A stretch of DNA of 64,000 nt from an uncultured bacterium (GCA_963848965.1 CAWKFG010000001.1:579181-643180), one strand, 5' to 3'. Counted from the stretch's first letter, positions 604-41,331 are shown. Translations and numbers: made by a program. Notes: generated by a model from the letters alone, not told the origin.

Positions 604-1635
604 TTACTGTTTTGCTCCATGCTTCTTAAGCAATTCTACTATTTCTTTATTCCCACATTGTGTAGTAATCATTAAAGCAGTATAGCCGTATTTATCTTGA
701 ACATTAACATCAGCACCTGCATTGATGAGCATTTCTACTATATCTTTGCTCTCATCATATACAGCAAATATTAAAGCAGTTTTTCCATCTTTGTTTTGAG
801 CGTTAACATTTGTGCCCTTAGCTATAAGTAGTTCTGCAACATCCTTGTGCCCTTTGCACAAAGCATCCATGTAATGTCCCCTTCTATACACAGCATCCAT
901 AAAAGGAGTTTTATCATATTTATCTCGAGCATCAATATTAGCACCATAAGACAGAAGTATTTCTATTATATCTTTTTGACCAGCTCGAGCTGCCCAGTGT
1001 AAAGCTGTATGCCCAAGGTTATCTGCGTGATGAATATTTGCCCCAGCCTTAATAAGCGTTTCTGTTATATCCTTATGGCCTTTTTGGGCAGCTCGATGTA
1101 ATGCAGTAAGACCATACTTATCTTGAGCATTACTATTAATACCTTTAGATAAAAACTCTTGTACTGTGTTTATATCTCCTTTTTCTGCTGCATCTATAAA
1201 CTCCCGTTGCCTTAAAGACTCTAAAGCGCCTGAAGTATTTAATTCTTGTGCTATATTTTTTAGTTCTTTAGAAGGATCTTTGCTAGATAATTCACTAATA
1301 AGGATACGATTAAAATTAGGGCTGTTGAAAAAGAACGCTAAATCTTTATCGTTGGATAAAGTTTGCAGCGCATCTATGGCATTAGTATAGTCTTGTGTCT
1401 TTATAAGCTCTAATTGTTGTTGTAAGGTATTAAGAGCTTGCGAACTTTTAATGTTTGCAGCTTCCCTTATTCCTTGCAACAACTCATCGATAGTAAGAAC
1501 ATTGCTTAAATTAGTAGTAAATTTAACAAGTTCTTGCTTCAGCTCTTGCGGTAAGAGTTTTAAATAGCTCTCAAGCTGCATTGCAGATAAAGGAAGGCTA
1601 TATCCTATTACCAGAGCTATCATTATTTTCTTCAT
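604..1635 (-). CDS. Secreted ankyrin-repeat protein (family member 1)
   Basis: MKKIMI...SAMQ signal peptide, YLKLLPQEL motif, FFNSPNFNRIL domain, then about 6 G.TAL..AA..G.K.I...L...GA.VN repeats. ORF track starts at 1650. Confidence 0.92.
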   Translation of the reverse strand: MKKIMIALVIGYSLPLSAMQLESYLKLLPQELKQELVKFTTNLSNVLTIDELLQGIREAANIKSSQALNTLQQQLELIKTQDYTNAIDALQTLSNDKDLAFFFNSPNFNRILISELSSKDPSKELKNIAQELNTSGALESLRQREFIDAAEKGDINTVQEFLSKGINSNAQDKYGLTALHRAAQKGHKDITETLIKAGANIHHADNLGHTALHWAARAGQKDIIEILLSYGANIDARDKYDKTPFMDAVYRRGHYMDALCKGHKDVAELLIAKGTNVNAQNKDGKTALIFAVYDESKDIVEMLINAGADVNVQDKYGYTALMITTQCGNKEIVELLKKHGAKQ

Positions 1636-1835
1636 TAGATTGTCTTTCAAATATCTTTATTCTACAAATTTCTTGTTCTTCCACAATTTAAATAATCCAA
1701 ATTTTATAAAAATTAATTTTTATTGCATGTTTATGTTCAATTTAACTTGATTTTGGTAAAAATGCAATAATTGTGATGTTTAAGAGATGATGCATTGTTC
1801 TGCTAGATAAACACGGGTTGTAAGAAGTAGTTTTA

Positions 1836-1927
1836 TTAAGCCCTTGCATAATCTAAAGCAGTCATATCATTACTATCTCGAATATTACTATCTGCGCCCA
1901 TATTAACAAGCATGATTACTATTTCTT
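1836..1927 (-). pseudogene. Ankyrin gene 3' fragment (KEIVIMLVNMGADSNIRDSNDMTALDYARA*)
   Basis: Manual translation matches the ankyrin consensus. A 22-nt piece (gcataatctaaagcagtcatat) also occurs at about 492-513. Confidence 0.65.
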
Positions 1928-2157
1928 CAAGCATTAATAGCACCTTGATACTTTAATAAAAGAGCTACAATAGCACACTGAAAGTTATCTTATGACGAAA
2001 ATGGGCAAACACAGCTGTTTCTAATTAATCTAATTGAAGGCTTAGATGCCATTATAAGTATCGACTTTGTTTTAGTTGACGCATGATAGTTGCTGCTATA
2101 AAATTTATAAGGAGATGTAGAAATAAGTAAAAATGTACCAAAATTGTTAAGGAAGAG

Positions 2158-3183
2158 ATGAAAAAACTCATATTAGTAGTGCTAGGATGGTCTGTTTCTA
2201 CTTTTAGTATGCAGCCTAAAACCTATTTAGATATTCTATCGCAACAGCTTCGACAAGAGATTGTTAAATTTATCACTGACCCACAAGATGTTTTTGCTTC
2301 AGAAAACGAAAACATAGCAAAAGAATTAAATACTTCAGGCGCTCTAGAATCTTTAAGGCAACGAGAGTTTATAGATGCAATAGAAAGCGAAGATATAAAA
2401 GCAGTAAAGGACCTTTTAGCTGCAGGTATTAATAGTGATGCTCAAGATATCTATTACGGGCTTACCGCTTTGCATTGGGCTGTTGGAAGAGAAAACAAAG
2501 AATTAGTAGAGGTGCTTCTATCATTTGGCGCTAATGTTAATGCTAAAGATGTATATACAAATACTGCTTTAATGGATGCTGCAGAAAGTAGTAAGCATAT
2601 ATTTGTTACAGACGTTAATGCTAAGAATAGACATAAAGATATAGTAGAAATGCTTATCAATGCAGGTGCTGATATTAATGCTAAAGATGGATATGGTTAT
2701 ACTGCTTTAATGAAAGCTGCATATAAAGGAAATAAAGCAGTAGTAGAATTGCTTCTGTTATCTGGCTCAGATGTTAATACTAAAAATAGTTTTGGCAATA
2801 CTGCATTAATGCGTGCCACTAAATATATATATGGTAATAAAGACGTAGTAGAAATGCTTATCAATGCAGGTGCCGATGTTAACGCTAAAGACAACTATGG
2901 TAGAACTGCTTTAATGTTTGCTATATTGTTTATCAATCATAGCAGTATAGTAGCGCTACTTATAGCTAAGGGCGCTGATGTTAATGCTCAAGATGGAATT
3001 GGCAATACAGCTTTAATCTATGCTGCAGACGATGGCAATAAAGATATAGTAAAAATGCTCATCAATGCAGGTGCTGATGTGAATGCTAAGAATAATGATG
3101 GTCAAACTGCTTTAATGGCAGCTAAGCATCGAGGCCGTAAAGAAGTAGAAGAGCTTCTTAAAAGACAAGAAGCAAAAGAATAA
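2158..3183 (+). CDS. Secreted ankyrin-repeat protein (member 2), lacking most of the family's helical N-domain
   Basis: Signal peptide ...FSMQ, YLDILSQQL, about 8 ankyrin repeats. Confidence 0.92.
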   Translation: MKKLILVVLGWSVSTFSMQPKTYLDILSQQLRQEIVKFITDPQDVFASENENIAKELNTSGALESLRQREFIDAIESEDIKAVKDLLAAGINSDAQDIYYGLTALHWAVGRENKELVEVLLSFGANVNAKDVYTNTALMDAAESSKHIFVTDVNAKNRHKDIVEMLINAGADINAKDGYGYTALMKAAYKGNKAVVELLLLSGSDVNTKNSFGNTALMRATKYIYGNKDVVEMLINAGADVNAKDNYGRTALMFAILFINHSSIVALLIAKGADVNAQDGIGNTALIYAADDGNKDIVKMLINAGADVNAKNNDGQTALMAAKHRGRKEVEELLKRQEAKE

Positions 3184-3581: not shown

Positions 3582-4779
3582 ATGAAAAAACTATTAATTA
3601 TAGTGTTAGGGCGGTCTGTTTTTACCATAGGTATGCAGCCTGAGACTTACTTAGATGTCTTACCACAAGAGCTTCAAAAAGAACTTATTCAATTTACTAC
3701 TAGTTTACAAGACATACGTACTTTTGAAGAGTTACAAGAAAAACTAAATGAAATACAACAAAAGGCTGTGCATCTTAAGAGGCTTTCTTCTTTAGTACAA
3801 GCTCTTAACAACCTACAACAGCAACTAAAATATATAAAGAATGCAAACTATACTAATGCTTTAGCTGCGCTGCAAACTTTATCCAAAGATAAAGAATTAG
3901 AGTTCCTTTTTAATAATCCTGATTTTAATCGTATTCTTATTAGTGAATTATATAATTCTTCAGCGCCAGAAAATATATTAAAAGATCTAAATACTCCTGG
4001 TGCTTTAAAATGGTTGAAGCAACTAGAGTTTATAGATGCAGCAGGGAAAGGAAGTGTAAAAGCGGTAAAAGAGTTTTTAGATGCAGGCATTAATAGTAAT
4101 GCTAAAAACAAAGATGGTTATACTGCTTTAATATATGCTACATCTAATGGCTACAAAGATATAGTAAAGCTACTTCTAGCTAAGGCAGATATTAACGCCA
4201 ATAACTATGGGACCGCTTTACACCGAGCTGCTGTAGCTCGGCATAAAGATATAGTAGAGATGCTTCTTAATAAAGGAGCAAATGTTAACGCTCAAGATGG
4301 TTTTGGCAATACTGCTTTAATAATAAGCTGCGTTGGGACATAAAGATATAGTGGAACTACTTATAAATGCAGGCGCAGATGTTAATGCCCAAGGTTATTG
4401 CGGTAAAACAGCTTTAATAGAAGCTGTGCAAAGAGGAAATAAAGAAATAGTAGAAATACTCATTCAAGCAGGAGCAAATGTTAATGCTCAAGATTATGAA
4501 GGTCTTATTGCTTTAATAGATGCAGTAAATAATGGACATAAAATTATAGTAGAGATGCTTCTTAAGGCTGGTGCAGATGTTAATGCTAAAGATAAGATTG
4601 GACGTACAGCTTTAATGTATGCCGCTTTGCACGGACGCAAAAGCATAGCAGAACTACTCATTAAAGCTGGTATTGATGTTAACGCTCAAGATAATGATGG
4701 CCAAACTCCCTTAATGATTGCTATACAAAGAGGGGATAAAGAGATAGCAGAACTACTTAAAAAACATGGAGCAGAATAA
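3582..4779 (+). pseudogene. Secreted ankyrin-repeat gene (member 3) split by a +1 frameshift near 4325 (ORFs 3582..4343 and 4333..4779)
   Basis: Removing one A from ataataagctgcg restores NTALIIAALGHKDIVELL. The downstream frame ends with the family tail LLKKHGAE. Could be a sequencing error. Confidence 0.8.
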
Positions 4780-4917: not shown

Positions 4918-4919
4918 CG

Positions 4920-6240: not shown

Positions 6241-7068
6241 ATGAAGAAAGCACTAGTTATAGTACTCCTAGGATGGTCTATTTCTCTAGTGGGTATGGAG
6301 CCTAAAACTTATTTAGATCTTTTACCTCAAGATCTAAGGCAAGAACTTGCTAAATTCACTACTACTTTAGAAGGCATATATACTTTTGATGAGTTACAAG
6401 AAAAACTAAGTGAAATACAACAAAATGCTGTGCATCTTAAGAGTCCCTCTTCTTTAGTACAAGCTATCAATAACCTACAACAGCAACTAAAGACTATAAA
6501 GAATGCAAACTATAGTAATGCTATGGCTGCATTACAAGTTTTATCCAAGGATAAAGAGTTAGAGTTTCTTTTTAACAATCCTGATTTTAATCGTATTCTT
6601 ATAGATGCATTACAGCAAGAGAACTATACTGAAAAACTAGAAAATATAGCAAAAGCTCTTGGTACTCCAGGTGCTTTAGAATACTCAAGGCAATTACAAT
6701 TTATAAAAGCAATCAAAAAAGGAGATATAAAAGCTGTAAAAGAGTTTTTAGATAAAGGTATTAATGTTAATGTTAAAGATGGGGTCAGCAATACTGCTTT
6801 AATGATTACTGCCGAAAAAGGACATAAAGATATAGCAGAATTACTTTTAGCTGCAGGCGCAAATGTTAATGCTAAAGACATAGGTGGTTCTCCTGCTTTA
6901 ATGCTTGCCGCTTTGTACGGAAGTAAAAGCATAGCAGAGTCACTCATTAAAGCAGGAGCAGATGTTAATGCTCAAAATGTCCGTGGCAGAACAGCTTTAA
7001 TGCATGCTGCGGACTATGGCTATAAAGAAATAGTAGAACTACTTAAGCATCATGGCGCACGGAAATAA
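6241..7068 (+). CDS. Secreted ankyrin-repeat protein (member 4)
   Basis: Signal ...VGME, YLDLLPQDL, FLFNNPDFNRIL, about 4 ankyrin repeats. Confidence 0.92.
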   Translation: MKKALVIVLLGWSISLVGMEPKTYLDLLPQDLRQELAKFTTTLEGIYTFDELQEKLSEIQQNAVHLKSPSSLVQAINNLQQQLKTIKNANYSNAMAALQVLSKDKELEFLFNNPDFNRILIDALQQENYTEKLENIAKALGTPGALEYSRQLQFIKAIKKGDIKAVKEFLDKGINVNVKDGVSNTALMITAEKGHKDIAELLLAAGANVNAKDIGGSPALMLAALYGSKSIAESLIKAGADVNAQNVRGRTALMHAADYGYKEIVELLKHHGARK

Positions 7069-7723: not shown

Positions 7724-8710
7724 TTAAGAGATCATTTTGCTCCATGCTTTGAGAAGCTCTACTACATCTTTATCTCCGCGAAAAGCAGCTATGATCTCAG
7801 CGGTATTACCGTCTTTATCTTCAGCATTAATATCAGCACCTGCATATATAAGTAGTTCTACTATATCTTTTTGTCCCTTTTCAGCAGCAAGCGTTAAAGC
7901 AGTATCTCCATTCTCATTTTGAACATTAACGTCAGCACCATGGGTTATGAGCATTTTTACTATATCTTTACTTCCTGCGGTTGCTGCCCATATTAAAGCA
8001 GTATTGCCATACTCATCTTGAACATTAACGTTGGCACCTCTAGCTAGTAATAAAGATACAACTTCTTTATGTCCGTTCTTTGCAGCTTCACGTAAAGCAG
8101 TCCTGCCGACTACTATATCATCTTGAGCATTAATATTAACACCAGCATCTAAAAAGTCTTTTACTGCATTTATGTTTCCTTTTTCTGCAGCATCTATAAA
8201 TTGTAATTGTCTTAGATATTTAAGAGATCCTAGTGTATCAATTTCTTGTGTTATGTTTTCTGGTGCTTTAAAAGGATTTTTATAATATAATTCACTAATA
8301 AGAATTTGATTAAAATCAAGATTATTAAAAAGGAATTCTAAATCTTTATCTTTGGATAAAGTTTGTAGCGTAGCTAAGGCATTATCATAATCTGCATTCT
8401 TTATAAGCTCTAGTTGGTCCCATAGGTTGTTAAGAGCTTGTATTAAACGAGAAAGACTCTTAAGATGCACAGCTTTTTGCTGTATTTCATTTAGTTTTTC
8501 TGGTAACTCATCAAAAGTGTTTATGCCTTCTAAATTAGTAGAGAATTGAATAAGTTCTTTTTGAAGCTCTTGAGGTAAAAGCTTAAGATAGCTTTCTCGT
8601 TCTTGAGCTGGAAGCTCCTCTGAAGGCGTAGGCCATAGCGATGAGGGATCCTCCATGCTATATATATTGATACAAAACATTACAAACGCTATCCATATTG
8701 TTCTTTTCAT
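7724..8710 (-). CDS. Secreted ankyrin-repeat protein (member 5)
   Basis: Signal ...YSME, short linker, YLKLLPQEL, about 5 ankyrin repeats. Confidence 0.92.
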   Translation of the reverse strand: MKRTIWIAFVMFCINIYSMEDPSSLWPTPSEELPAQERESYLKLLPQELQKELIQFSTNLEGINTFDELPEKLNEIQQKAVHLKSLSRLIQALNNLWDQLELIKNADYDNALATLQTLSKDKDLEFLFNNLDFNQILISELYYKNPFKAPENITQEIDTLGSLKYLRQLQFIDAAEKGNINAVKDFLDAGVNINAQDDIVVGRTALREAAKNGHKEVVSLLLARGANVNVQDEYGNTALIWAATAGSKDIVKMLITHGADVNVQNENGDTALTLAAEKGQKDIVELLIYAGADINAEDKDGNTAEIIAAFRGDKDVVELLKAWSKMIS

Positions 8711-9488: not shown

Positions 9489-10934
9489 TCATTGCAAAGC
9501 ATATGATAAAATCGACACATCTGTATTGTTTTCTTGAGCATTTATAAGTAGTTTTACTATCTCCTTGTAGCCGAAGGATACTGCCCAATCTAAAGCAGTT
9601 TTACCCTCTTCATCTTGAGCATTAATATTTGCACCAGCTGCTAGAAGTAGTTCTACTACATCAGCATTCCCTTTATTTACAGCAAATATTAGAGCAGTTT
9701 GTCCCATACATTTTACATTAACATCAGCTCTTGCAGCTATATACATATCTACTATCTTCTTATATCCTCCATGTATAGCCTCTATTAAAGCAGTCCAGCC
9801 ATTATTACTTTGAACATTAACATTTGCGCCTGCAGCTATAAGCATTTCTACTGTATCTTCATATCTCTCTCTTGCTGCAATTATTAGAGCAGTCTGGCCA
9901 TTTATATCCTTCGCATTAACATCTGCCCCTGCATTTATAAGCATTGCTGCTATCTCATTATGACGATCTAAAGCAGCATGAATTAAAGCAGTATCACCAT
10001 ATTTATTTGCAGAGTTAACGTCTGCCTTGGCTTTAAGAAGCAATTCTACTATATCTTTGTGTCCAATAGTTACAGCACGCATTAAAGCAGTAGAGCCATT
10101 CTCATTTTGAACATTAACATTTGCGCCTGCAGCTATAAGCACTTCCACTATCTGTTTATATCTAAGCATCTCTGCCATATCTTTATACACACGGTCTACT
10201 GCACCTATTAAAGCAGTCCGGCCATGTAGATTTTTCGCATTAACATCTGCTCTTGCATTAATGAGCAGTTCTACTATTTCTTTGAATCCACTACCAGAAG
10301 CATACATTAAAGCGGTTTGGCCATTTAAACCACGAGCATTAACATTAGTACCTTTATCTATCAGCTCTTTTACCTTTTGTGTATCCCCTTTTTCTACTAC
10401 CTCTAGAAATTCAAGGTACCTTGCAAGCTCTAAAGCTCTGGCAGTAGCCAAATTTTCTGCTATATTTTTTGGTCCCACACCTAGTTCTTCAGCATTTGAT
10501 TTATGCCAGAGGCTATCTACAAGAATACGGATAAAATTAGGATTATTAAAGAAGAATTCTAACTCTTTATCTTCTGATAAATCCTTTATTAAGGCTAATG
10601 CATTAGTGTAATTTTCTCTCTTTATTTGCCATAAACGATCTTCCAATCTTTCAAGAACCTCTGCTGAAAGAGATGCTCGAAGAAGAGAAATCCCTTGTAT
10701 TTCTTCTAACTTTCTCAACAGCCCATTAATTGTATTAACATCAGATGAACCACATAGGTTAAAAAGAAATGTAACGAGCTCGTTTTTAAGTTCTTGAGGC
10801 AAAAGGCTTAGGTATGTTTGTTCCTGCTTTCCTTTTTTTTCGGCTTGTTCTTTAATGTCTTCGCTTTCTTGCTCCATTGTTAGAGTTGTGATACTCCATC
10901 CTATTATAAGCATCATTATTATTGTTTTCTTCAC
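9489..10934 (-). CDS. Secreted ankyrin-repeat protein (member 6, about 9 repeats)
   Basis: GTG start, signal ...LTME, YLSLLPQEL, FFFNNPNF, long ankyrin stack. Confidence 0.92.
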   Translation of the reverse strand: MKKTIIMMLIIGWSITTLTMEQESEDIKEQAEKKGKQEQTYLSLLPQELKNELVTFLFNLCGSSDVNTINGLLRKLEEIQGISLLRASLSAEVLERLEDRLWQIKRENYTNALALIKDLSEDKELEFFFNNPNFIRILVDSLWHKSNAEELGVGPKNIAENLATARALELARYLEFLEVVEKGDTQKVKELIDKGTNVNARGLNGQTALMYASGSGFKEIVELLINARADVNAKNLHGRTALIGAVDRVYKDMAEMLRYKQIVEVLIAAGANVNVQNENGSTALMRAVTIGHKDIVELLLKAKADVNSANKYGDTALIHAALDRHNEIAAMLINAGADVNAKDINGQTALIIAARERYEDTVEMLIAAGANVNVQSNNGWTALIEAIHGGYKKIVDMYIAARADVNVKCMGQTALIFAVNKGNADVVELLLAAGANINAQDEEGKTALDWAVSFGYKEIVKLLINAQENNTDVSILSYALQ

Positions 10935-12958: not shown

Positions 12959-13984
12959 TTATTTTGCACCATGCCTTTTAAGAAGCTCTACTATCTCTTT
13001 ATATCCACATTGTGTAGTAATCATTAAAGCAGTATAGCCATATTCATCTTGAGCATTAACATTTGCACCAGATTTAATAAGCATTTGAACTATATCTTTA
13101 TGTCCATACAGTGCAGCATACCTTAAAGCAGTTCCGCCATATTTATCTTTAGCATTAACATCGGCACCCTTAGCGATAAGCATTTGTACTATATCTTTAT
13201 ATCCACGAGAAGCAGCATTCATTAAAGCAGTCTGACCATACACATTTTTAGCATTAACATCTGCACTAGCTTTAAGAAGCATCTCTACTATTTCTTTGCG
13301 CCCTTTTTCGGCAGCAAACCATAAAGCAGTATTGCCTTTATTGTCTTTAGCATTAACATTTGCCCTATGAGCTAGAAGTAGTTCTGCTATATCTTTATGT
13401 CCAATAGCAGCATACATTAAAGCTGTCCAGCCATCATTATCTTTAGCATTAATATCAATACCTTTATCTAAAAAGTCTTTTATAGCTTTTACATCTCCTT
13501 TTTCTGCAGTCTTTAAAAACTCTAATTGCTTCAACCATTCTAAGGCACCAGAAGTATTAAGCTCTTTTGCTATGTTTTCTGGATTCTTCAAAAAAAGGTT
13601 CTGCTGCCAAAGTACAGATGTAAGAATGCGATTAAAATTAGGATTATTAAAAAGGAACTCTAACTCTTTATCGTTAGACAAAGCTTGCAGTGCAGCTAAA
13701 GCATTAGTATAGCTTGCTGTCTTTATAAGTTCTAGTTGTTGCTGTAGGTTATTGATAGCTTGTATTAATGAAGAGAGACCTTTAAAATATGCTGCCCTTT
13801 GTTGTATTTCACCTAGTTTTTCTTGTAACTCTTTAAAAGTCTGTATGTCTTGTAAACTAGTAGTGAATAGAATAAGTTCTCGTTTAAGGTCTTGAGGTAA
13901 AAGTTCTAAATAACTCTGCGGTTCCATACCTAGAATAGAGATAGACCAGCCTAGTAGTAGCGCTAACAATCTTTTTTTAATCAT
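12959..13984 (-). CDS. Secreted ankyrin-repeat protein (member 7)
   Basis: MIKKRLL...LGME, YLELLPQDL, about 6 ankyrin repeats. ORF track starts at 14020. Confidence 0.92.
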   Translation of the reverse strand: MIKKRLLALLLGWSISILGMEPQSYLELLPQDLKRELILFTTSLQDIQTFKELQEKLGEIQQRAAYFKGLSSLIQAINNLQQQLELIKTASYTNALAALQALSNDKELEFLFNNPNFNRILTSVLWQQNLFLKNPENIAKELNTSGALEWLKQLEFLKTAEKGDVKAIKDFLDKGIDINAKDNDGWTALMYAAIGHKDIAELLLAHRANVNAKDNKGNTALWFAAEKGRKEIVEMLLKASADVNAKNVYGQTALMNAASRGYKDIVQMLIAKGADVNAKDKYGGTALRYAALYGHKDIVQMLIKSGANVNAQDEYGYTALMITTQCGYKEIVELLKRHGAK

Positions 13985-14721: not shown

Positions 14722-15729
14722 TTAACCCTTTGCTCCATGCTTCTTCAGTAATTCTACTATATCTTTAGCTCCTGTGTCTGCAGCCTCATGCAAAGCAGTT
14801 CTACCTTCGTTATCCTTTACATTAACATCAGCTCCTGATGCCAAGAGTATTTCTACTAGATCTTTACGGCGATATTGTACAGCAAGCATTAAAGCAGTTC
14901 GGCCATATTTATTTTGGCTATTAACCTCTACACCTGCTTTAAGTAGTATTTGAACTATACCTTTAGGTCCTAATGCAGCTCGATGTAAAGCAGTAGAGCC
15001 ATTATTATTTTTAGCATTAACATCAGCTCCTGCCTTTATAAGCATTTCTACTATATTTGTATGTCCTTTTTCGGCAGCCCAATGTAAAGAAGTAAGACCA
15101 TACTTATCATGAGCATTAACATCTGCTCCTGCATTGATAAGCATTTCTACTATATCTTTGCTTTCATCATATACAGCAATCATTAAGGCAGTACGTCCAT
15201 TTATATCTCTAGCATTAACATTAATACCTTTATCTAAAAAGTCTTTTACAGCTTTTATATCTCCTTTTGTTGCAGCAGCAATAAATCGTTTTTGCCTTAA
15301 GTATTCTAAAGCTCCTGGAGTATTAAGCTCTTGTGCTATATTTTCTAGTTCTTTAGAAGTATCTTTGATAGATAATTCTCTTATAAGAATACGATTAAAA
15401 TCGAGATTGTTAAAAAGAAATTCTAACTCTTTATCCTTGGATAAATCTTGTAGCGCAGCTAATGCATTATCATAGTTTGCATTCTTTATCTGCTCCAATT
15501 GCTGTTGTAAGGTATTAAGGGCTTGAGTAAAAGAAGATGAGCTTGAACGCTCTGCTGCTTCTTTTAATTTTTGCAATAACTCATCAATAGTAAAAACATT
15601 GCTTAAATTAGTAGTAAATCTACTAATCTCTTGTCTTAGCTCTTGCGGTAGGAGTTCTATATAAGTCTTCTGTTCCATTCCTAAGGTAGAAACATACCAT
15701 CCTAGTACTATAACTAATAATTTCTTCAC
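14722..15729 (-). CDS. Secreted ankyrin-repeat protein (member 8)
   Basis: GTG start after GGAG, signal ...LGME, YIELLPQEL, about 6 ankyrin repeats. Confidence 0.92.
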   Translation of the reverse strand: MKKLLVIVLGWYVSTLGMEQKTYIELLPQELRQEISRFTTNLSNVFTIDELLQKLKEAAERSSSSSFTQALNTLQQQLEQIKNANYDNALAALQDLSKDKELEFLFNNLDFNRILIRELSIKDTSKELENIAQELNTPGALEYLRQKRFIAAATKGDIKAVKDFLDKGINVNARDINGRTALMIAVYDESKDIVEMLINAGADVNAHDKYGLTSLHWAAEKGHTNIVEMLIKAGADVNAKNNNGSTALHRAALGPKGIVQILLKAGVEVNSQNKYGRTALMLAVQYRRKDLVEILLASGADVNVKDNEGRTALHEAADTGAKDIVELLKKHGAKG

Positions 15730-20029: not shown

Positions 20030-20870
20030 ATGAAAAGGATACTAGTTGTAACACTCGTAGGATGGTCTATCTCTATTCTAGGTATGGAGCCTAAAACTTA
20101 TTTAGAACTTTTACCTCAAGATCTGAGGCAAGAGCTTGCTAAATTCACTACCAATTTAGAAAATGTTTTTACTATTAAGAAGTTACAAGAAAAACTAGGT
20201 GAAATAGAACAAAGAGTGGTGCATCTTAAGGGTTTATCTTCTTTAGTACAAGCTCTTAATACCTTACAACAACAATTAGAGCTTATAAAAAATGCAAAGT
20301 ATGAAGATGCATTAGCTTTAATAAAAGAATTATCTCAAAATAAAGGATTAGAATCCTTTTTTAATAATCCTGATTTTATTAGAATTATTATACACACGCT
20401 ATGGCCTAAAGCACTTAGGGAAGGAAAGTACAACATTCAAGAAGGAAATATAGCACAAGAGCTTAATACACCAGGAGCTTTAGAATACTCAAAGCAATTA
20501 CAATTTATTAAAGCAGCACATAAAGGAGACATAAAAACAGTGCAAGAATTTTTAAGTAAAGGTATTAATGTTAATGCTAAAGCTATCCTTGGCACCACTG
20601 CTTTAATGTCTGCTGGATATGGTAGGAAAGATATAGTTCAAATGCTTCTGGCGCATAAAGCAGATGTTAATGCTCAAGATCACAGTGGGCAGACTGCATT
20701 AATATATGCTGCATTGCGTGGAGATAAAAATATAGTAGAAGTGCTTATAGTGCAAGGGTGCAGATGTTAATGCTAAAGATAATGATGGTCATACTGCTTT
20801 AACGTGGGCAGCTACTTATGAACATAAAGATATAGTAGCATTGCTTAAAAAGCACGGGTCTAAAGAGTAA
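20030..20870 (+). pseudogene. Secreted ankyrin-repeat gene (member 9) with a +1 frameshift near 20757
   Basis: ORF 20030..20770 ends QGCRC. Removing one G from caagggtgca restores [16 protein letters not shown]...LLKKHGSKE* at 20870. Confidence 0.8.
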
Positions 20871-25124: not shown

Positions 25125-25140
25125 TAGGAGGCCTAAAACA

Positions 25141-25647
25141 ATGACTAGAGCTCTATCTTTCATCATTACAAGTAACTTCTTGCTACTCATCCTTTGTCAC
25201 TCTTATACATCTACAATGGAACCTATGAAAGAAGAGCCATCAACTTCGCGTTTATACGCTCTGCCTCCAGAGCTCAGAGCACAGACACTTCTTACTACTA
25301 TAATGAAAGAACTTCAATCAAAAATGGGCCGTAAAATGTTAATGAGAGCACATAAAGCACTTGCTCCTCATGAAGAGCCACAACTAGAGTTAGATGAAGA
25401 CGATATTCAATTTATCATCGCAAAATTGCAACCCTCTTTTTCTCATAAGGATTTTTCTACTTCGCGTACCATTGGCACGGTACTTTCTAGACTTGCTCCT
25501 TATTATAAAGGATCCCTCAAAGAACTTGGCCTCAAGATTAAGGAAGGGTTTCCTGAGAAAGAATACCCATTCTTTAACCAAGCTCTTCAAGAATGGTTGA
25601 AGGAACAAGCGGCAAAAGAGACACAATCTTCTCAAAGTAGATTATAA
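25141..25647 (+). CDS. Secreted hypothetical protein with LYALPPELR motif
   Basis: AGGAGG SD before ATG 25141, signal ...STME. Confidence 0.8.
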   Translation: MTRALSFIITSNFLLLILCHSYTSTMEPMKEEPSTSRLYALPPELRAQTLLTTIMKELQSKMGRKMLMRAHKALAPHEEPQLELDEDDIQFIIAKLQPSFSHKDFSTSRTIGTVLSRLAPYYKGSLKELGLKIKEGFPEKEYPFFNQALQEWLKEQAAKETQSSQSRL

Positions 25648-26134: not shown

Positions 26135-27027
26135 GTATATTTTTTAAGAAGTTCTATTATATCTTTAAATCCAGACATTTTGGCAGGCGTTAAAGCAGTA
26201 TTGCCTTTATTGTCTTTAGCATTAACATCAGCACCATGAACTATAAGCATCTCTACTATAGCTTTATTTCCCCCAGATGCAGCTACTATTAAAGCAGTAT
26301 TGCCATACTCATCTTGAGCATTACCATCTGCACCAGATGCAAGTAGCATCTTTACTATATCTTTATATCCATTAGATGCAGCTTTCATTAAAGCAGTATC
26401 ACCAGTTATGTCTTGAGCATTAACATTTGTTCTATGAGCTAGAAGTAGTTCTACTATGTCTTTATAACCAAAAACTACTGCTCTCATTAAAGCTGTTTGA
26501 TTAGTATTACTATTTACTTTAGCATTAACATTTATTCCTTTATTGAGAAAATCTTCAACTGCTTTAACATCTGCTTGGCCAACAGCCTTTAAAAATAGCA
26601 ACTCTGTTGGACGACGTTGTAACCAGAGTGCAGCACCTGCTGTTTTAAGATCCTTTGCAATATCATCCTGCTTTTTAATATCATATCTTGTGTGGTAATC
26701 GTTAATCTTGATTACTTTATATTTCTTCTGCAGCTCATCTAATAGAGATTCAGTAAAAGGAATATCTTCAAAGAGGGTAGCATATTCTTGCTTTTGTGCG
26801 AGCTCTTGTATCTTATGTAATGCCTCTGTGTATTCTAAGTCTTTTATAAGTACATGAATTACAAGAGGATTCAGTAAATTCTTAAGATCTTGCGGCAATA
26901 AACTTAAATAACTCGTCTCTTGCTTGCTTTTCTTATGCTCTCTTTCTTCTGCCATCTCAGACTCATGCTTCATACCTATAGCATTAAAACAGAAAGCTAT
27001 GAGTAGAATATATAATACTTTAAACAT
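26131..27027 (-). CDS. Secreted ankyrin-repeat protein (member 11, divergent N-domain)
   Basis: Signal ...IGMK, YLSLLPQDL, about 5 ankyrin repeats. Confidence 0.9.
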   Translation of the reverse strand: MFKVLYILLIAFCFNAIGMKHESEMAEEREHKKSKQETSYLSLLPQDLKNLLNPLVIHVLIKDLEYTEALHKIQELAQKQEYATLFEDIPFTESLLDELQKKYKVIKINDYHTRYDIKKQDDIAKDLKTAGAALWLQRRPTELLFLKAVGQADVKAVEDFLNKGINVNAKVNSNTNQTALMRAVVFGYKDIVELLLAHRTNVNAQDITGDTALMKAASNGYKDIVKMLLASGADGNAQDEYGNTALIVAASGGNKAIVEMLIVHGADVNAKDNKGNTALTPAKMSGFKDIIELLKKYT

Positions 27028-29609: not shown

Positions 29610-30626
29610 ATGAAGAAACTGTTAATAGGAATACTAGCAGGGTCCATTTCTACTTTTAGTATACAGCCTAAAGGCTATCTTGACATCTTACCTCAAGAGC
29701 TTAGTCAAGAGATCGTTAAGTTTATTACTAGCTTAGAAGATACTTTTACAATTACTAAGTTGCAACAAAAATTAAAGGATATGACAGGAATATCTATTTT
29801 TAAGGGATTGCCTTCTGCTCAAGCTCTTAAAAATCTACAACAACAATTAGAACTTATAAGGTATGCAAAGTATGATGATGCCTTAGCTTTGATAAAGATT
29901 TTATCCAAAGATAAAGAGTTAGAATTTCTTTTTAATAATCCTGATTTTAATCGAATTCTTATAAGTGACTTACATCTCATTGCATCATGGAGAAATCCAC
30001 AAGATATAGCACAAGCTCTTGGGACTCCTGGGGCTTTAGAATACTCAAGGCAATTAGAATTTATAGAAGCAGCGGCAAGAGGAGATGTAAAAAGAGTAAA
30101 AGAATTTTTAGATTCTGGTATTAATGTTAATGCTAAGGATACAAAAGGTGATACTGCTTTAACACGAGCTGTACAACATAGGCACAAAGAAATAGTAGAA
30201 CTACTTCTAGCTCATGGTGCTGATATTAATGCTAAAGATGGGTATACAAGTACTGTTTTAATTTATGCTGCGCGAGGTGGCTATAAAGAAATAGCAGAAA
30301 TACTCATAGCACATGGAGCTCATGTCAATGCTAAAAAGTCGGATGACAGTACTGCTTTAATGCATGCTGTAGACTATGGTCATGCAGATATAATAGAACT
30401 ACTTTTGGCTCATCATGCCGATGTTAATGCTCAAAGTGAGGACGGCCTTACTGCTTTAATGGGGGCTGCATACCACGGATTCAAAGATATAGTAGAACTG
30501 CTTATAGCCGCTGGAGCAAATGTTAATGCTAAGGACAAAAATGGCAATACTGCTTTAAAATATGCTGCAGACAGAGGATATAATGAAATAGCAGAATTAC
30601 TTAAAAAACATGGCGCTAAAGAGTGA
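29610..30626 (+). CDS. Secreted ankyrin-repeat protein (member 12)
   Basis: Signal ...FSIQ, YLDILPQEL, FLFNNPDF, about 6 ankyrin repeats. Confidence 0.92.
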   Translation: MKKLLIGILAGSISTFSIQPKGYLDILPQELSQEIVKFITSLEDTFTITKLQQKLKDMTGISIFKGLPSAQALKNLQQQLELIRYAKYDDALALIKILSKDKELEFLFNNPDFNRILISDLHLIASWRNPQDIAQALGTPGALEYSRQLEFIEAAARGDVKRVKEFLDSGINVNAKDTKGDTALTRAVQHRHKEIVELLLAHGADINAKDGYTSTVLIYAARGGYKEIAEILIAHGAHVNAKKSDDSTALMHAVDYGHADIIELLLAHHADVNAQSEDGLTALMGAAYHGFKDIVELLIAAGANVNAKDKNGNTALKYAADRGYNEIAELLKKHGAKE

Positions 30627-32257: not shown

Positions 32258-32267
32258 TCCTATCCTT

Positions 32268-32670: not shown

Positions 32671-33476
32671 TTAGCTGCTTCTTTCCGCTGGCTCTTCGCT
32701 GTCCGATTCTGTAAGATATTCTATAGGCTTAGTGTCAACCATCACCTGAGGCTCTTGTGCATCCAAACGAAGAGGCTCTGGGGCACTGCCAACTATAGAT
32801 GAACCAGTAAGCATTCCCGACTCTTGATGCCAAGTCCATGTTGTATCATATGATTTATACTGTTCTTTAGGCTTAGGGCACTCTTTGCGCTTATTAAAAA
32901 GTGCTCGTGATTTAGCCTGAAAGTGACCTCGCTGTTTTCCAAGATGCTGTTCTTTAAAATGGCGCCTAATAGCATCAAGTGACTTAGCTCGTACAATACA
33001 TTCTGGCCACTTACAAGCGTAATCCTGTGCAATACGATGCTTATCTATATGTTTTATAAAATACGAAAGGCTTATTAACTCCAACGCACATTGAGGACAC
33101 CTATAATCACCATCTATCTTATGTAATTCTAGCACATGTTCTCTTAAATCTTGAATATCCTTAAACTTTTGGCCACAAGGACAATTATAATTGTCTATCT
33201 CATAGAAATTTCCTGAAGAAAGCGCCTTCTGCGCATCTAATAGAGATGCATCACTGCGTACACTTAAAGATTGGCCTGCTGCAAGTAAGTTCTGAACAAC
33301 AGACCTTGATACATGCTCCTTTGGTTCATATGAAGAAAGAACATCTGCTTTTCGCTTACCTAATAGTGACTCCGCTTGCATTGGCTCTGCTTGTACAGCC
33401 CGCTCAAGCTCCATTGCTTGTATTTGCCGCACAGAATCTACCGCATGAATATGCATATGCAAAGTACTTTTCTCAT
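32671..33476 (-). CDS. Secreted C2H2 zinc-finger protein (3 fingers); signal peptide probably frameshifted near 33444
   Basis: CPC..HVLELH, CPQC..HIDKH, CKWPEC..HFKEQH. ATG 33476 gives MRKVLCICIFM, which joins AVDSVRQIQAME if one G is added. ORF track gives 32671..33462. Confidence 0.82.
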
Positions 33477-33536
33477 GAAAAAGATCTTTTTATAAAATTA
33501 TGCGACAATAATAAATAGATCCTTAAAGATTCAAAG

Positions 33537-34903: not shown

Positions 34904-34955
34904 CTTTATTTCCCTTTTATTTCTTTTTATAATCAAAGGCTTTGGAGCACATCAT

Positions 34956-38585: not shown

Positions 38586-38612
38586 ATTTTTATTTTGACT
38601 ATATTTTATTGT

Positions 38613-40463
38613 TTAACTATCTTTTTCTCCTAAAAATTGCAAAACATCGTCAGAGGTAGCAATAATTTCTGTTTCATCCTGCTCTGTTTTAGCAGGGCTA
38701 GATACTCTATCTTGCATATTTATATTTAACACATCACTAAAATTGTTAGCGCTTTGAAAATTATATAAAGCATTCATGTCCTGCGCTGGATCGTTAAGCC
38801 AATCTACAAAGCCTAGATCAGTATTACTAATGACATCTTTAGTCATTTCTTTAGCTGATACATTTTGAGAAAGTTCAGAAGAAATTATTGGCCTTTTTTT
38901 CTTACGTTTTACATTATTACTTTTATGGGTATTCAGGTGGTCTCTCATTTGTCGCAATGAGCTGAAAACTTTCGAACAACTATCCCAATCACATGCATAA
39001 CTTACATTACTTCTATGACGATCTAAATGATACAACAACTTTATAGGTCGCCCTTTAAAGTGAGCTTCACAAGCAGGACAAGTATACCCTGAAGCTTGCT
39101 TATGAAAGCCTACAATATGTCTCTTTAAATTCTCTTCATATTTAAACTTTTCACCGCATACACAATCAAACTTATTTATTTTAAACTTTCTTATTCCAGG
39201 TTTTTTTATTTCATTTTGATTTTCATCAGAGGAGATCTTTTGTTCTAGTCCATCTTGCTCTTTAGGCGAGCTATTGCTATTTAATATCTGCAAAGATCGG
39301 CTTGACTGCATTAAAGTCTGAATAAGAGAAGCTTTATGTATATCTTGTTCATCACTAGAAAGAGCATCTGCTTTACGCTTACTACCAACTATAACCTCCT
39401 CAGCTGCTCCTATCTCTGCTTGTTGTATATGAGTTGCAGGTTGCTCCTGAATGTGCATAGTATAAGAAAGCTCTTTAGTACCTTGATCGCTATCGGAATA
39501 TGATGTTTCCTCTCTTTTACGCTTTTCAGAAGATATTCTAGAGTTTCCTTTGTAATGCTCATGAGATTGCATCTCTTCACTAGTAGAAAAAGTTTCATTA
39601 CAAGTAAAACATTGCTTATGTGCACTAAAAAAGTGTTCCTCAAGATACGTTTTCTGCCAAAACCTACAACCACATTTTCTACATAAAAAATTCCCTACTA
39701 ACACATTAGATTTTTCGTGCTTTTTTTTAACATGCGCTTGTCTCTCTCTTATTGAAGAAAAAACTTTCAGGCACCCTTGCACAGGACAGGTATAACACTT
39801 ATCATTAATACTATGAATATCCATGTGCCCTATAAACGTAACAAGCCCTGCAATAGACTTACTACATTTAGGACAAATATACTGCGATCCTTGGCAATGA
39901 GAACGTATAATATGTTCTTTTAAGCCATCTTCATTAATAAATTTTTGGTCACAGGCACATTCAAAGCCTACTTGCTCATGCGCATGAGCAACACTGTTGC
40001 TCTCAGATACAAACAAAGAGCTGCTACTATTAATTAAGGTCTGCGCCAAAGAAGTTTTTCTCTCTTTTTCGCTTAAGCTGTTCTTTTCAGATGCCTGTAC
40101 TTCTTGCCTTACTAGAGCTTGTTCAGGCTCAGCGGCTTGGAACAGCTGTCCAGAAGGAGCAACGCTTGTATGAGTTTGCATATGTTGCATAAAACCAGGA
40201 AGTGTTTTTACGTACTCACAACATACTTGCGCTGGACATACATAGTAATCACCTTCTGGCGCTTTTATAAAATGCTCATTTATAGCGTGCTGCAAAAGTT
40301 GCATTTTATTAGAAAACGATTGCCTACATGCACATGGGTGTACGATAGCAAGCGCTACCGGCACGCTAAGCTTGCTAGACTTATTCTCTGCAGGAACCAT
40401 TCCATAGAGAATACTGTCAATCCTAAAAAGCATAAAAACCAGCACAATATGATAATAGTTCAT
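38613..40463 (-). CDS. Secreted multi-C2H2 zinc-finger protein, paralog of 34956..38585
   Basis: Shared EHFIKAPEG, FVDWLNDP and SSPAKTEQ blocks. KRKKKR basic patch. Confidence 0.92.
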   Translation of the reverse strand: MNYYHIVLVFMLFRIDSILYGMVPAENKSSKLSVPVALAIVHPCACRQSFSNKMQLLQHAINEHFIKAPEGDYYVCPAQVCCEYVKTLPGFMQHMQTHTSVAPSGQLFQAAEPEQALVRQEVQASEKNSLSEKERKTSLAQTLINSSSSLFVSESNSVAHAHEQVGFECACDQKFINEDGLKEHIIRSHCQGSQYICPKCSKSIAGLVTFIGHMDIHSINDKCYTCPVQGCLKVFSSIRERQAHVKKKHEKSNVLVGNFLCRKCGCRFWQKTYLEEHFFSAHKQCFTCNETFSTSEEMQSHEHYKGNSRISSEKRKREETSYSDSDQGTKELSYTMHIQEQPATHIQQAEIGAAEEVIVGSKRKADALSSDEQDIHKASLIQTLMQSSRSLQILNSNSSPKEQDGLEQKISSDENQNEIKKPGIRKFKINKFDCVCGEKFKYEENLKRHIVGFHKQASGYTCPACEAHFKGRPIKLLYHLDRHRSNVSYACDWDSCSKVFSSLRQMRDHLNTHKSNNVKRKKKRPIISSELSQNVSAKEMTKDVISNTDLGFVDWLNDPAQDMNALYNFQSANNFSDVLNINMQDRVSSPAKTEQDETEIIATSDDVLQFLGEKDS

Positions 40464-40608
40464 TGTTCTTTCCTTACATGAAAGATGGAATTTTATATTT
40501 CAAAAATAGAATTTTTATTGTAATAAGTATACTGCGCACTCAGTACAAATGCAAGCTAGCTACTTACAACTGCCTCTGCTTACCCTACAGCCACGAACCG
40601 TTTTCAAG

Positions 40609-41331
40609 TTATTGTTTTTCTTTGCTTTGTAAAAGCATGTGGTAGATCTTTGTACTTACCGAGCCTTCTCCCTGTTGACAAGCAAGATTTTGAGCAAACC
40701 AAAGCTCTCTATCAGAAACAGGAGCACTATACTTAAGCAAAAGTTCTACTAAAGAAAGATCTTTTCTACCTACTGCTATACTCAGAAAGCTATACAACAC
40801 TGGATATTTGCAAGGACAACCAGTAAAAGGATCTATTGAAGTAAGAATTTCCATGGTTGGACTAACAACACCCGTACTTATATAATTTTTTATCTCCTCA
40901 ACGACTAAAGTACTACCTGGCGCCTTAAGAAGCTCTACAAATTCCTTGTTAAAGAGTATATAAGCATGCCACCAAGAAGTTGCTGCCTCAGTGCCTATCT
41001 CTTTCACCACCTCCAAAATCATATTTGAATATACTCCTCTACAACCTCTTGAAAAGACTCGCGCCAAATGGGTAATAATATCCCCCACTTGCCGAGCGTC
41101 ACACAAAGCTTTAGAGTGATACTTTTTAAGCCAACTTACATAGTTTGATAAAGTACTCTTTTCAAGAGCTGGATTAAAAGGAAAATAACGCGCTAATTCG
41201 TCAAAGAGTTCTCTTGGAAGAAACGCTAAATATGAATGCTCTCGTTTTTCTTTGGATAAATAAGCAAGCCCCTTAAGAGAAAAGGTACATAAGATCGCCA
41301 TACTTAAAAAGACATATTTATTATTTTTCAT
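40609..41331 (-). CDS. Secreted hypothetical protein with YLAFLPREL motif and a degenerate ankyrin-like C-terminus
   Basis: Hydrophobic N-terminus. LSIAVGRKDLSLVELLLKYSA resembles one ankyrin repeat. Confidence 0.8.
   Translation of the reverse strand: MKNNKYVFLSMAILCTFSLKGLAYLSKEKREHSYLAFLPRELFDELARYFPFNPALEKSTLSNYVSWLKKYHSKALCDARQVGDIITHLARVFSRGCRGVYSNMILEVVKEIGTEAATSWWHAYILFNKEFVELLKAPGSTLVVEEIKNYISTGVVSPTMEILTSIDPFTGCPCKYPVLYSFLSIAVGRKDLSLVELLLKYSAPVSDRELWFAQNLACQQGEGSVSTKIYHMLLQSKEKQ

What the first reader, a model, noticed from the sequence alone, without database searches (positions are those of the whole stretch)
604..41331. Portable F-box-like motif (YLxLLPx(E/D)L) on ankyrin and non-ankyrin proteins
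Seen: the motif sits near the mature N-terminus of nearly all ankyrin paralogs (degenerate in 2158). It recurs in unrelated proteins: YLKSLPLDLNREL (J-protein 21160), LYALPPELRAQ (25141) and YLAFLPRELFDEL (40609). Established: F-boxes start LxxLPxE(L/I), and F-box+ankyrin effectors such as Legionella AnkB recruit Skp1/SCF. Ariadne-type RBRs cooperate with neddylated cullin ligases. Inference: a library of substrate adaptors for host SCF, possibly working with the local RBR ligase.
Basis: inference. Interest (0 to 1): 0.8.

Follow-up and report, generated by a model that had tools for sequence, protein, structure and literature searches.

The report
One-helix F-box-like tag on exported ankyrins
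A bacterium that lives inside protists puts the same 20-residue 'LP-helix' tag, which resembles the first helix of a eukaryotic F-box, on the ends of about fifty exported ankyrin and leucine-rich-repeat proteins, probably to dock them onto host protein-tagging machinery, but no binding has been tested.

Summary
In the window's genome (1.73 Mb, Dependentiae by its nearest named relatives), the pattern [YF]LxxLPx[ED]L occurs 52 times in 1454 ORFs, against 5.05 +/- 1.9 in shuffles. It is nearly always terminal: 40 sites lie just after an export leader, 11 lie 19-32 residues before the stop, and 1 is internal.

The carriers are mostly repeat proteins: 36 of 52 are ankyrin, 2 are LRR and 1 is a J-protein. 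In relatives the carriers also include WD40 proteins.

- **Against an F-box:** Pfam F-box, F-box-like and PRANC models hit none of the sites. Pfam UBM hits 11 of 51 below threshold. HUWE1 UBMs are the top solved-structure matches.
- **For an F-box:** a profile of the motif aligns with bona fide F-box-like domains of other Dependentiae at 92.5% probability. The score is 23.8, against at most 16.3 in 200 column shuffles. The match covers only the pre-LP loop and helix 1.

Best reading (0.5): a minimal one-helix F-box-like docking tag, as reported for cowpox CP77. Skp1 and ubiquitin binding could not be tested. A link to the local RBR ligase has no support.

The parts
1510..1584 (-). Motif segment (25 aa) of ankyrin paralog ORF 604-1635, just after the leader
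   Evidence: seed-HMM 31.6 bits; ANK domains
2224..2271 (+). Degenerate motif (P to S, E to Q) in ankyrin paralog ORF 2158-3183
   Evidence: seed-HMM 10.7 bits, E 0.029
3630..3704 (+). Motif segment of ankyrin paralog ORF 3582-4343. The gene looks broken: its ANK part continues in another frame.
   Evidence: ANK match with an internal TAA at C1:583693-583965
6292..6366 (+). Motif segment of ankyrin paralog ORF 6241-7068. This is the protein that was folded.
   Evidence: AF2: short helix at residues 6-9, then LP, then helix 12-21, with pLDDT 71-84 in this region.
8534..8608 (-). Motif segment of ankyrin paralog ORF 7724-8710
10758..10832 (-). Motif segment of ankyrin paralog ORF 9489-10916
13856..13930 (-). 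Motif segment of ankyrin paralog ORF 12959-13984
15607..15678 (-). Motif segment of ankyrin paralog ORF 14722-15678. The ATG start lies at the conserved Met after the leader; a TTG-started frame reaches 15744.
20081..20155 (+). Motif segment of ankyrin paralog ORF 20030-20770
   Evidence: best Pfam UBM sub-threshold hit in the genome, 17.5 bits
21340..21414 (+). Motif segment in the J-domain protein ORF 21160-21699, at residue 67 and upstream of the DnaJ domain
   Evidence: DnaJ 38.9 bits; 23.1 bits
22036..22110 (+). Motif segment of ankyrin paralog ORF 21976-22779
   Evidence: (34.2 bits, the best)
25252..25284 (+). Marginal LP site (LYALPPELRAQ) in ORF 25114-25647. Not accepted as a member.
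   Evidence: seed-HMM 3.3 bits, E 6.9; Pfam UBM E 0.057
26854..26928 (-). Motif segment of ankyrin protein ORF 26131-27027
29658..29732 (+). Motif segment of ankyrin paralog ORF 29610-30626
41176..41250 (-). Motif segment of the 240-aa protein ORF 40609-41331, which has no Pfam domain
   Evidence: 24.8 bits
41523..43445 (+). Neighbouring exported ankyrin + IBR (RBR-type) protein. This is context only; it does not carry the motif.
   Evidence: IBR 47.9 bits, IBR_1 45.6 bits, ANK

Best explanation
The motif is a minimal, one-helix version of the F-box. It consists of the short loop or turn that ends in Leu-Pro, followed by the first amphipathic helix: (S/T)-[YF]-L-x-x-L-P-x-[ED]-L-x-x-E-[LIV]-x-x-[FY].

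It is attached either to the N-terminus (after a Sec-type leader) or to the extreme C-terminus of exported ankyrin, LRR, WD40 and J-domain proteins of Dependentiae.

Proposed mechanism, none of it shown here: once the proteins reach the host cytosol, the tag docks on host Skp1. It uses the same part of the F-box that supplies most Skp1 contacts. The repeat domain then presents a host protein to the SCF ubiquitin ligase, or it competes with host F-box proteins.

- **Shown:** the motif, its enrichment, its terminal position, its carriers, and its profile-level likeness to helix 1 of real F-box-like domains in the same phylum.
- **Inferred:** delivery to the host cytosol, Skp1 binding and ubiquitination.
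For: 1. **Profile likeness.** hhalign of the 51-sequence motif alignment against 29 Dependentiae domains found with Pfam F-box-like at E<=2.8e-5 (28 of the 29 above the model's cut-off) gives probability 92.5%, E 4.9e-7, over 21 columns. The score is 23.8. In 200 column shuffles the mean was 7.1, sd 2.3, max 16.3, and 0 of 200 reached 23.8. The N-terminal class (92.2%) and the C-terminal class (84.8%) each match, and they match each other at 97.5%.
2. **Shared positions not imposed by my pattern.** A hydrophobic residue at P+7 in 49 of 51 motif sites and 29 of 29 F-box-like domains. An aromatic residue at P+10 in 40 of 51 and 17 of 29.
3. **Carriers are the classic F-box partners.** 36 of 52 are ankyrin above Pfam cut-offs, 2 are LRR and 1 is DnaJ. 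Two WD40 propellers carry it in relatives. 35 of 54 HMM-defined motif ORFs are ankyrin, against 137 of 1454 ORFs overall; odds ratio 23.
4. **Intermediates in relatives.** In G188 the same site is hit by the motif profile and by F-box-like over profile positions 2-42. In G007 a motif-bearing gene lies in tandem with genes that score 23.4-24.4 bits on F-box-like.
5. **Distribution.** The sister genus G023 has at least 25 F-box-like domains and no motif hit. G000 and G008 have many motif copies and no F-box-like hit at E<=0.001.
6. **Precedent, from passages of the review PMC4353913.** Poxviral F-boxes keep two of three helices and still bind Skp1. CP77's F-box is reduced to the first helix and still binds. 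Most Skp1 contacts come from helix 1 and the loop before it. The C-terminal position after ankyrin repeats is the poxvirus and Orientia arrangement. All 13 G008 copies examined end 18-31 residues before the stop.
Against: - No Pfam F-box, F-box-like or PRANC hit falls on any motif site of this genome: 18 window proteins at E<=1, whole-genome scans at E<=10, and 0 of 51 segments.
- An HMM built from the Dependentiae F-box-like domains gives the motif proteins at most 9 bits.
- Pfam UBM, a ubiquitin-binding motif, hits 11 of 51 segments below threshold, best E 9e-4.
- The 4 best of 9 solved-structure matches are HUWE1 UBM regions (E 0.011-0.049), and none of the 9 is an F-box protein.
- The likeness covers only about 21 residues. 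Helices 2 and 3 are missing.
- The N-class helix is more charged than F-box helix 1. E at P+6 occurs in 36 of 51 sites against 7 of 29. A hydrophobic residue at P+5 occurs in 10% against 52%.
- In the AF2 models of one paralog, residues 9-71 superpose on generic three-helix bundles (best Z 6.6). The helix may therefore be packed inside its own protein rather than free to dock.
- The proteins carry Sec-type leaders, and how they would reach host cytosol is unknown.
- No partner was tested.
Confidence: 0.5

Rival explanations
1. The tag is a UBM-like ubiquitin-binding motif: helix, Leu-Pro turn, helix, as in HUWE1, Rev1 and Pol iota. It would make the ankyrin and LRR proteins readers of ubiquitin or of ubiquitinated host proteins.
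For: - Pfam UBM is the only Pfam family that repeatedly hits the sites. It gives 12 sub-threshold genome hits, at least 10 of them on motif-bearing ORFs, best 17.5 bits against a cut-off of 23.3. It hits 11 of 51 segments.
- The motif profile's 4 best solved-structure matches are HUWE1 UBM regions, including the isolated UBM structure 2mul_A.
- AF2 predicts a short helix, then LP, then a helix.
- The acidic residue at P+6 and the aromatic/Leu pair before the LP fit the UBM match better than the F-box-like profile.
Against: - All hits are below the curated cut-off, and E-values are 0.0009-0.05.
- 0 of 48 motif proteins of relatives hit UBM. Among them, 4 hit F-box-like or F-box and 2 hit PRANC, all at sub-threshold scores.
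- From my own knowledge, no UBM is known to be coupled to ankyrin, LRR or WD40 repeats.
- F-box helix 1 and UBM share the LxxLPxE(L/I) core, so the two likenesses are not independent.
Confidence: 0.15
2. The tag is a lineage-specific docking or sorting tag for some other partner. That partner could be a host protein other than Skp1 or ubiquitin, or a bacterial export or surface-anchoring component. The resemblance to the F-box and the UBM would then be convergent, since all three are an LP turn followed by an amphipathic helix.
For: - The tag is strictly terminal: 41 N-terminal, 12 C-terminal and 1 internal among 54 ORFs.
- It goes with export leaders: 34 of 40 in the N class and 13 of 18 in the C class.
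- Its distribution in the phylum is patchy and lineage-specific: 28 of 261 genomes, with expansions in G000, G008 and genus g101.
- No curated family reaches threshold.
Against: - The tag was found on one enzyme only, a chance hit in a dikinase. About half of all ORFs carry a leader (766 of 1454), so a general export tag should be spread more widely.
- The profile match to real F-box-like domains is far above shuffles.
- Intermediates with full F-box-like domains exist.
Confidence: 0.25
3. The segment is only a structural element, such as the first helix of a small helical bundle or a cap on the repeat domain, and has no docking role.
For: In the folded paralog, the post-LP helix (12-21) and the next two helices (31-47, 52-69) superpose on generic three-helix bundles such as BAG and spectrin-like domains, Z 5-6.6. 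pLDDT is 69-84 in this region, which is not the value of a disordered tail.
Against: - The same 20 residues occur ahead of unrelated downstream sequence, and at the extreme C-terminus with nothing after them (13 of 13 in G008).
- They occur on ankyrin, LRR, WD40 and J-domain proteins.
- In the C class a Gly/Pro/Gln-rich linker separates the tag from the last repeat.
- Z below 8 is within noise for helical models, by the tool's own note.
Confidence: 0.1

Closest known systems
Truncated C-terminal F-boxes of poxvirus and Orientia ankyrin proteins (PRANC type), including cowpox CP77
   Same: Both have ankyrin repeats followed by a short LP-helix at the very C-terminus. Both are shortened F-boxes. 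According to the review PMC4353913 (passages), CP77's is reduced to the first helix and still binds Skp1. Both occur as many paralogs per genome.
   Different: The Pfam PRANC model does not hit this genome's sites. Most copies here are N-terminal and follow an export leader. Only one helix is left. The consensus has a fixed aromatic-Leu pair before the LP and Glu at P+6. Binding is untested.
Cellular-type N-terminal F-box proteins (FBXL, FBXW) and bacterial F-box effectors such as Legionella AnkB (AnkB recalled from my own knowledge, not from a call)
   Same: An LPxE(L/I) start, a hydrophobic residue at P+7, an aromatic residue at P+10, an N-terminal position, and fusion to LRR, WD40 or ankyrin domains.
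   Different: Helices 2 and 3 are absent. No Pfam F-box model scores. The proteins carry Sec-type leaders rather than signals for a dedicated injection system.
Bona fide F-box-like domains of other Dependentiae (for example genome G023)
   Same: Same phylum, and in G023 the same family. They appear in the same kinds of proteins. The motif profile aligns to their first 21-24 columns. Intermediates and tandem paralogs link the two.
   Different: Those domains are 45-55 residues long, with the helix 2-3 signature, and they pass the Pfam cut-off: 39 of 261 genomes. This genome has none at E<=0.001.
UBM ubiquitin-binding motif (Pfam PF14377; HUWE1, Rev1, Pol iota)
   Same: An invariant Leu-Pro between two short helices, about 20-30 residues long, with an acidic amphipathic second helix. 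It is the best Pfam and solved-structure sequence match.
   Different: All scores are below threshold. From my own knowledge, UBMs are eukaryotic and are not coupled to repeat domains. Motif proteins of relatives hit F-box-like, not UBM.

Membership tests
F-box / F-box-like (PF00646, PF12937) | Sequence match to the curated models at or above the gathering score | tested here: not met
   No hit at E<=1 on 18 window proteins. None at E<=0.01 on 39 others. Genome scans at E<=10 give no hit over the cut-off and none on motif sites. 0 of 51 segments hit.
F-box / F-box-like (PF00646, PF12937) | Leu-Pro, then an acidic residue, then helix 1 with conserved hydrophobic positions | tested here: met
   L and P are invariant in 51 of 51. 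hhalign to 29 Dependentiae F-box-like domains gives 92.5%, E 4.9e-7. 0 of 200 shuffles reach the score.
F-box / F-box-like (PF00646, PF12937) | A three-helix domain of 40-50 residues, with helices 2 and 3 present | tested here: not met
   Profile alignments end at column 23-26 of 55, even when downstream sequence is supplied. The C-terminal copies have 13-26 residues after the LP (G008).
F-box / F-box-like (PF00646, PF12937) | Binds Skp1 | not testable with these tools
There was no match to the Pfam Skp1 model in 261 Dependentiae genomes, though that search matched nothing in its control genomes either. The complex tool does not pair eukaryote-like chains with microbial chains.
F-box / F-box-like (PF00646, PF12937) | Joined to a substrate-binding repeat domain (LRR, WD40, ankyrin) | tested here: met
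   36 of 52 are ankyrin and 2 are LRR. WD40 occurs in 2 relatives. Ankyrin enrichment has an odds ratio of 23.
F-box / F-box-like (PF00646, PF12937) | F-box fold seen in a structure comparison | tested here: inconclusive
   The N-terminal 140-residue model (pLDDT 88.6) had a best Z of 6.6 and no Foldseek match at E<=0.001. Small domains may not rank, so this does not exclude the fold.
PRANC (PF09372), pox-type truncated F-box | Match to the PRANC model | tested here: not met
   One genome hit, E 0.029, not on a motif site. Two relatives hit at E 0.031 and 0.055 on the motif.
PRANC (PF09372), pox-type truncated F-box | A short F-box at the extreme C-terminus of an ankyrin protein | tested here: met
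   12 of 54 motif ORFs in this genome. 13 of 13 in G008 loci. The carriers are ankyrin proteins.
UBM (PF14377) | Match to the curated model at the gathering score | tested here: not met
   Best 17.5 bits against a cut-off of 23.3. 11 of 51 segments hit at sub-threshold scores.
UBM (PF14377) | An invariant Leu-Pro between two short helices | tested here: met
   The AF2 model has a helix at 6-9, LP at 10-11 and a helix at 12-21. L and P are invariant.
UBM (PF14377) | Binds ubiquitin | not testable with these tools

The most novel reading that the evidence does not exclude
The tag is not an SCF adaptor at all. It would be the first prokaryotic family of UBM-type ubiquitin readers: a 20-residue Leu-Pro helix-turn-helix that lets about fifty exported ankyrin and LRR proteins latch onto ubiquitin or ubiquitinated host structures. 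If so, F-box helix 1 and the UBM would be two uses of one ancient LP-helix docking module.
Probability: 0.15. Interest if true: 0.75.

Novelty: new variant of a known kind. Interest (0 to 1): 0.5.

Why it matters
If the one-helix tag does bind Skp1, about 3.7% of this parasite's ORFs (54 of 1454) would be host-ligase adaptors that standard domain searches do not see. F-box counts in Dependentiae, and perhaps in other protist parasites, would then be serious underestimates.

It would also give a natural, 20-residue SCF-recruiting tag that works at either end of a protein, and a second case beside CP77 to show how little of an F-box is needed.

The proteins carry Sec-type leaders, which sharpens an open question for the phylum: how do exported effectors reach the host cytosol?

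If the tag instead binds ubiquitin or something else, it defines a new effector-docking motif.

Tried and rejected
**Searches and predictions that gave nothing usable**
It carries no information.
- Skp1 was sought in 261 Dependentiae genomes and not found, so no Skp1 chain was available.
With the 40-residue alignment it returned only the window's own protein.
- The search for related loci with a whole paralog returned only generic ankyrin proteins from many phyla.
- The protein atlas gave no usable hit.
- Fold searches of the whole model list only ankyrin structures. Those of the N-terminal domain list only weak helical matches: no F-box chain among 50 rows, best Z 6.6. This is inconclusive.

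**Ideas rejected by inspection only (inference, no tool)**
- SOCS or BC box and Cul5 box: the spacing of Leu and of the small residue does not fit, and there is no second Pro.
- YxxPhi sorting signal: Phe replaces Tyr in 13 of 51.
- LC3-interacting motif: the best-conserved part is LPxEL, which such motifs do not need.

**Ideas rejected with evidence**
- Solenoid cap: rejected because the tag occurs on four domain types and behind linkers.
- Recent DNA cassette copying between unrelated genes: among 39 N-class genes, only 3 pairs share 26-30 nt at 83-88% identity without similarity in the rest of the gene.

**Literature**
- Two full-text searches (Dependentiae + F-box + ankyrin; Dependentiae + ubiquitin + effector) found no description of this motif.
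- I saw only passages of PMC6561590 and PMC4776705, and none of their supplements. Those supplements may list F-box counts.
- PMC2504846 was not held.

Full report
**What is there.** The window is G000:C1:579181-643180 of a 1.73-Mb, 5-contig genome with about 37% G+C. An isoleucyl-tRNA synthetase fragment from the same contig has its nearest named relatives in 'Candidatus Dependentiae bacterium' MAGs, at 48-58% identity. Unnamed soil MAGs reach 58-64%.

The first 43 kb of the window hold 12 paralogous ankyrin genes and several other genes. Almost all begin with a hydrophobic leader that ends in a small residue, then Met, then Glu or Gln.

**Checking the observation.** Thirteen window ORFs match [YFWLIM][LIVM]xxLPx[ED][LIVMT]:
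- 11 are ankyrin proteins.
- 1 is the J-domain protein at 21160.
- 1 is the domain-less protein at 40609.

The LYALPPEL site in ORF 25114 is marginal: 3.3 bits with my seed HMM.

Genome-wide, the pattern occurs 52 times in 1454 non-overlapping ATG-ORFs of at least 80 residues. In 100 shuffles the mean was 5.05 +/- 1.9, with a maximum of 10. One of the 52 is a chance hit in a pyruvate phosphate dikinase.

Positions that the pattern does not fix are also conserved:
- S/T/N at P-6 in 42 of 51.
- Glu at P+6 in 36 of 51.
- A hydrophobic residue at P+7 in 49 of 51.
- An aromatic residue at P+10 in 40 of 51.

An HMM of the sites finds 54 ORFs at i-E<=0.01, plus weaker terminal copies. This count is partly circular, because the HMM was built from the same sites.

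**Anatomy.** The tag is terminal. Of the 52 pattern matches, 40 start within the first 80 residues, 11 within the last 40, and 1 is internal. By HMM the split is 41, 12 and 1.
- N-class copies begin a few residues after the leader. By a crude hydrophobicity test, 34 of 40 N-class ORFs have such a leader, as do 766 of all 1454 ORFs. That fits the 44% signal-peptide share reported for Chromulinavorax destructans (passage of PMC6561590).
- C-class copies leave only 13-26 residues after the Leu-Pro. 13 of 18 C-class ORFs also have a leader.

Carriers, by Pfam, among the 52:

| Carrier type | Number |
|---|---|
| Ankyrin above cut-off | 36 |
| Weak ankyrin | 3 |
| LRR (both C-class) | 2 |
| DnaJ | 1 |
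| Chance hit (dikinase) | 1 |
| No domain | 9 |

Ankyrin proteins are common in this genome: 137 of 1454 ORFs by phmmer. The association is still strong. 35 of 54 motif ORFs are ankyrin, with an odds ratio of 23, and about a quarter of all ankyrin ORFs carry the tag.

DNA comparison of the 5' parts of 39 N-class genes shows no recently copied cassette between unrelated genes.

**F-box, tested directly.**
- Pfam F-box, F-box-like and PRANC give no hit on any motif site: 18 window proteins at E<=1, genome scans at E<=10, and 0 of 51 isolated segments.
- The only family hit repeatedly is UBM, the Leu-Pro ubiquitin-binding motif. It gives 12 sub-threshold genome hits, at least 10 of them on motif-bearing ORFs, and hits 11 of 51 segments, best E 9e-4.
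- A profile of the 51 sites searched against all solved-structure sequences returns 9 matches at E<=10. The best 4 are HUWE1 UBM regions (E 0.011-0.049), and none is an F-box protein.

**Relatives change the picture.**
- The motif profile finds matches in 28 of 261 Dependentiae genomes at E<=0.01. Expansions occur in this genome (32 scored), in G008 of the same family (14), and in genus g101 (1-6 each).
- In 48 motif proteins of relatives, UBM is never hit. F-box-like or F-box is hit at the motif site in 4 (E 5e-5 to 0.04), and PRANC in 2. Two carriers are WD40 propellers.
- In G188 one site is hit both by the motif profile and by F-box-like over positions 2-42 of 47. In G007 a motif gene sits in tandem with genes that score 23.4-24.4 bits on F-box-like.
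- Real F-box-like domains are common in the phylum: 59 of 261 genomes at E<=0.001, and 39 above the cut-off. G023, of the same family, has at least 25. This genome and G008 have none.

I aligned 29 of the best-scoring F-box-like domains and compared profiles. The motif alignment matches them at 92.5% probability, E 4.9e-7, over 21 columns. The score is 23.8. In 200 column shuffles the mean was 7.1 +/- 2.3 and the maximum 16.3. The reversed alignment scored 6.2. The N class and the C class match separately, and they match each other.

The match always stops after helix 1, even when 20-115 downstream residues are supplied. So the tag equals the pre-LP loop plus helix 1 of an F-box and nothing more.

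**Structure.** AF2 was run on the mature 6241-7068 protein with a 26-paralog alignment. It gave pLDDT 93.8 overall. The model has a short helix (6-9), Leu-Pro, and a helix (12-21) at pLDDT 71-84. A helical region and the ankyrin stack follow. The N-terminal 140 residues folded alone gave the same elements, pLDDT 88.6.

Fold searches gave only weak, generic three-helix-bundle matches for residues 9-71. The best Z was 6.6, and no Foldseek match reached E<=0.001. This neither shows nor excludes an F-box-like arrangement. It leaves open that in this paralog family the helix packs within its own protein.

**Reading.** Reviews of poxviral ankyrin proteins state the following (passages of PMC4353913, and of PMC9414399):
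- Truncated two-helix F-boxes bind Skp1.
- CP77's F-box is reduced to the first helix and still binds.
- Most Skp1 contacts come from helix 1 and the preceding loop.

The Dependentiae tag keeps exactly that part. It sits where F-boxes sit: N-terminal as in cellular proteins, or extreme C-terminal as in poxviruses and Orientia. All 13 G008 copies examined are C-terminal. It is fused to the classic F-box partners.

I therefore rate a one-helix F-box-like Skp1-docking tag as most likely, at 0.5. The rivals are:
- A UBM-like ubiquitin binder (0.15).
- A lineage-specific docking or sorting tag for another partner (0.25).
- A purely structural helix (0.1).

Nothing about binding, delivery to the host cytosol or ubiquitination is shown. 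The only partner test open to me was not folded by the tool, and no Skp1 sequence was available.

The suggested cooperation with the neighbouring ankyrin-IBR protein has no evidence beyond adjacency.

**Novelty.** F-box and ankyrin effectors in intracellular bacteria and poxviruses are well known, and F-box domains have been mentioned for TM6/Dependentiae (passage of PMC4776705). Two full-text searches did not find the following described:
- A one-helix variant invisible to Pfam.
- Its fixed consensus.
- Its use at either protein end behind Sec-type leaders.
- Its scale, 54 of 1454 ORFs.

I call it a new variant of a known kind, with moderate interest.

Noticed in passing
window 32671-40463 (- strand): Five neighbouring genes encode proteins rich in eukaryote-type C2H2 zinc fingers. 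The largest has 1209 residues and zf-C2H2 at 98 bits. Three of them begin with a hydrophobic leader, which suggests exported DNA-binding proteins (possible nucleomodulins).
   Followed up: partly
window 23025-24266 (- strand): A 413-residue protein with an export-type leader and a C-terminal MYND zinc finger (42.3 bits). MYND is a eukaryotic protein-interaction domain.
   Followed up: partly
window 41523-43445 (+ strand): A leader-bearing protein with ankyrin repeats and two IBR-type domains, the RBR ubiquitin-ligase architecture. It lies next to the tagged genes but lacks the tag.
   Followed up: partly
window 4920-6149, 11180-12457, 16038-17351, 31028-32284: Four AAA_14 + DUF4143 ATPase genes are interspersed in the ankyrin array (two were checked by Pfam). 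The copies at 4920 and 11180 are close paralogs. They may mark recombination or duplication units of the array.
   Followed up: partly
window 3582-4779 and 12464-12832: Decay within the paralog array. The gene at 3582 stops early, and its ankyrin part continues in another frame (an ANK match with an internal TAA). ORF 12464-12832 is an N-terminal-domain fragment without leader, tag or repeats.
   Followed up: partly
whole genome (G000): After the hydrophobic leader, a small residue followed by Met and a polar residue is common: 280 of 766 leader-bearing ORFs, against 62 of 688 others. The conserved Met could be a second start that would give a leaderless, non-exported isoform. This was not examined.
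   Followed up: no
L149 (G232:C9:20222-23434); also G000:C1:528245-528370: Ubiquitin-family domains occur in 13 of 261 Dependentiae genomes. G232 has two adjacent leader-bearing proteins that hold a near-canonical ubiquitin domain without the C-terminal Gly-Gly. The window's genome has only a weak ubiquitin-like ORF.
   Followed up: partly
G023 (same family as the window's genome): At least 25 Pfam F-box-like domains in one 1.4-Mb genome (25 of 119 candidates scored). It has no hit to the short motif profile. This is the reverse of the window's genome.
   Followed up: partly
L282:1211-2140 (- strand; G184): One ankyrin protein carries two copies of the tag in tandem, at residues 178 and 216 of 310. 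They are internal rather than terminal.
   Followed up: no
G000:C5:40551-41258 and C4:34263-35348: These are the only ORFs of this genome that approach a full F-box-like domain. The first scores 16.2 bits over profile positions 8-50 with the Dependentiae F-box HMM. Neither N-terminus shows a hydrophobic leader. The first also has ankyrin repeats.
   Followed up: partly
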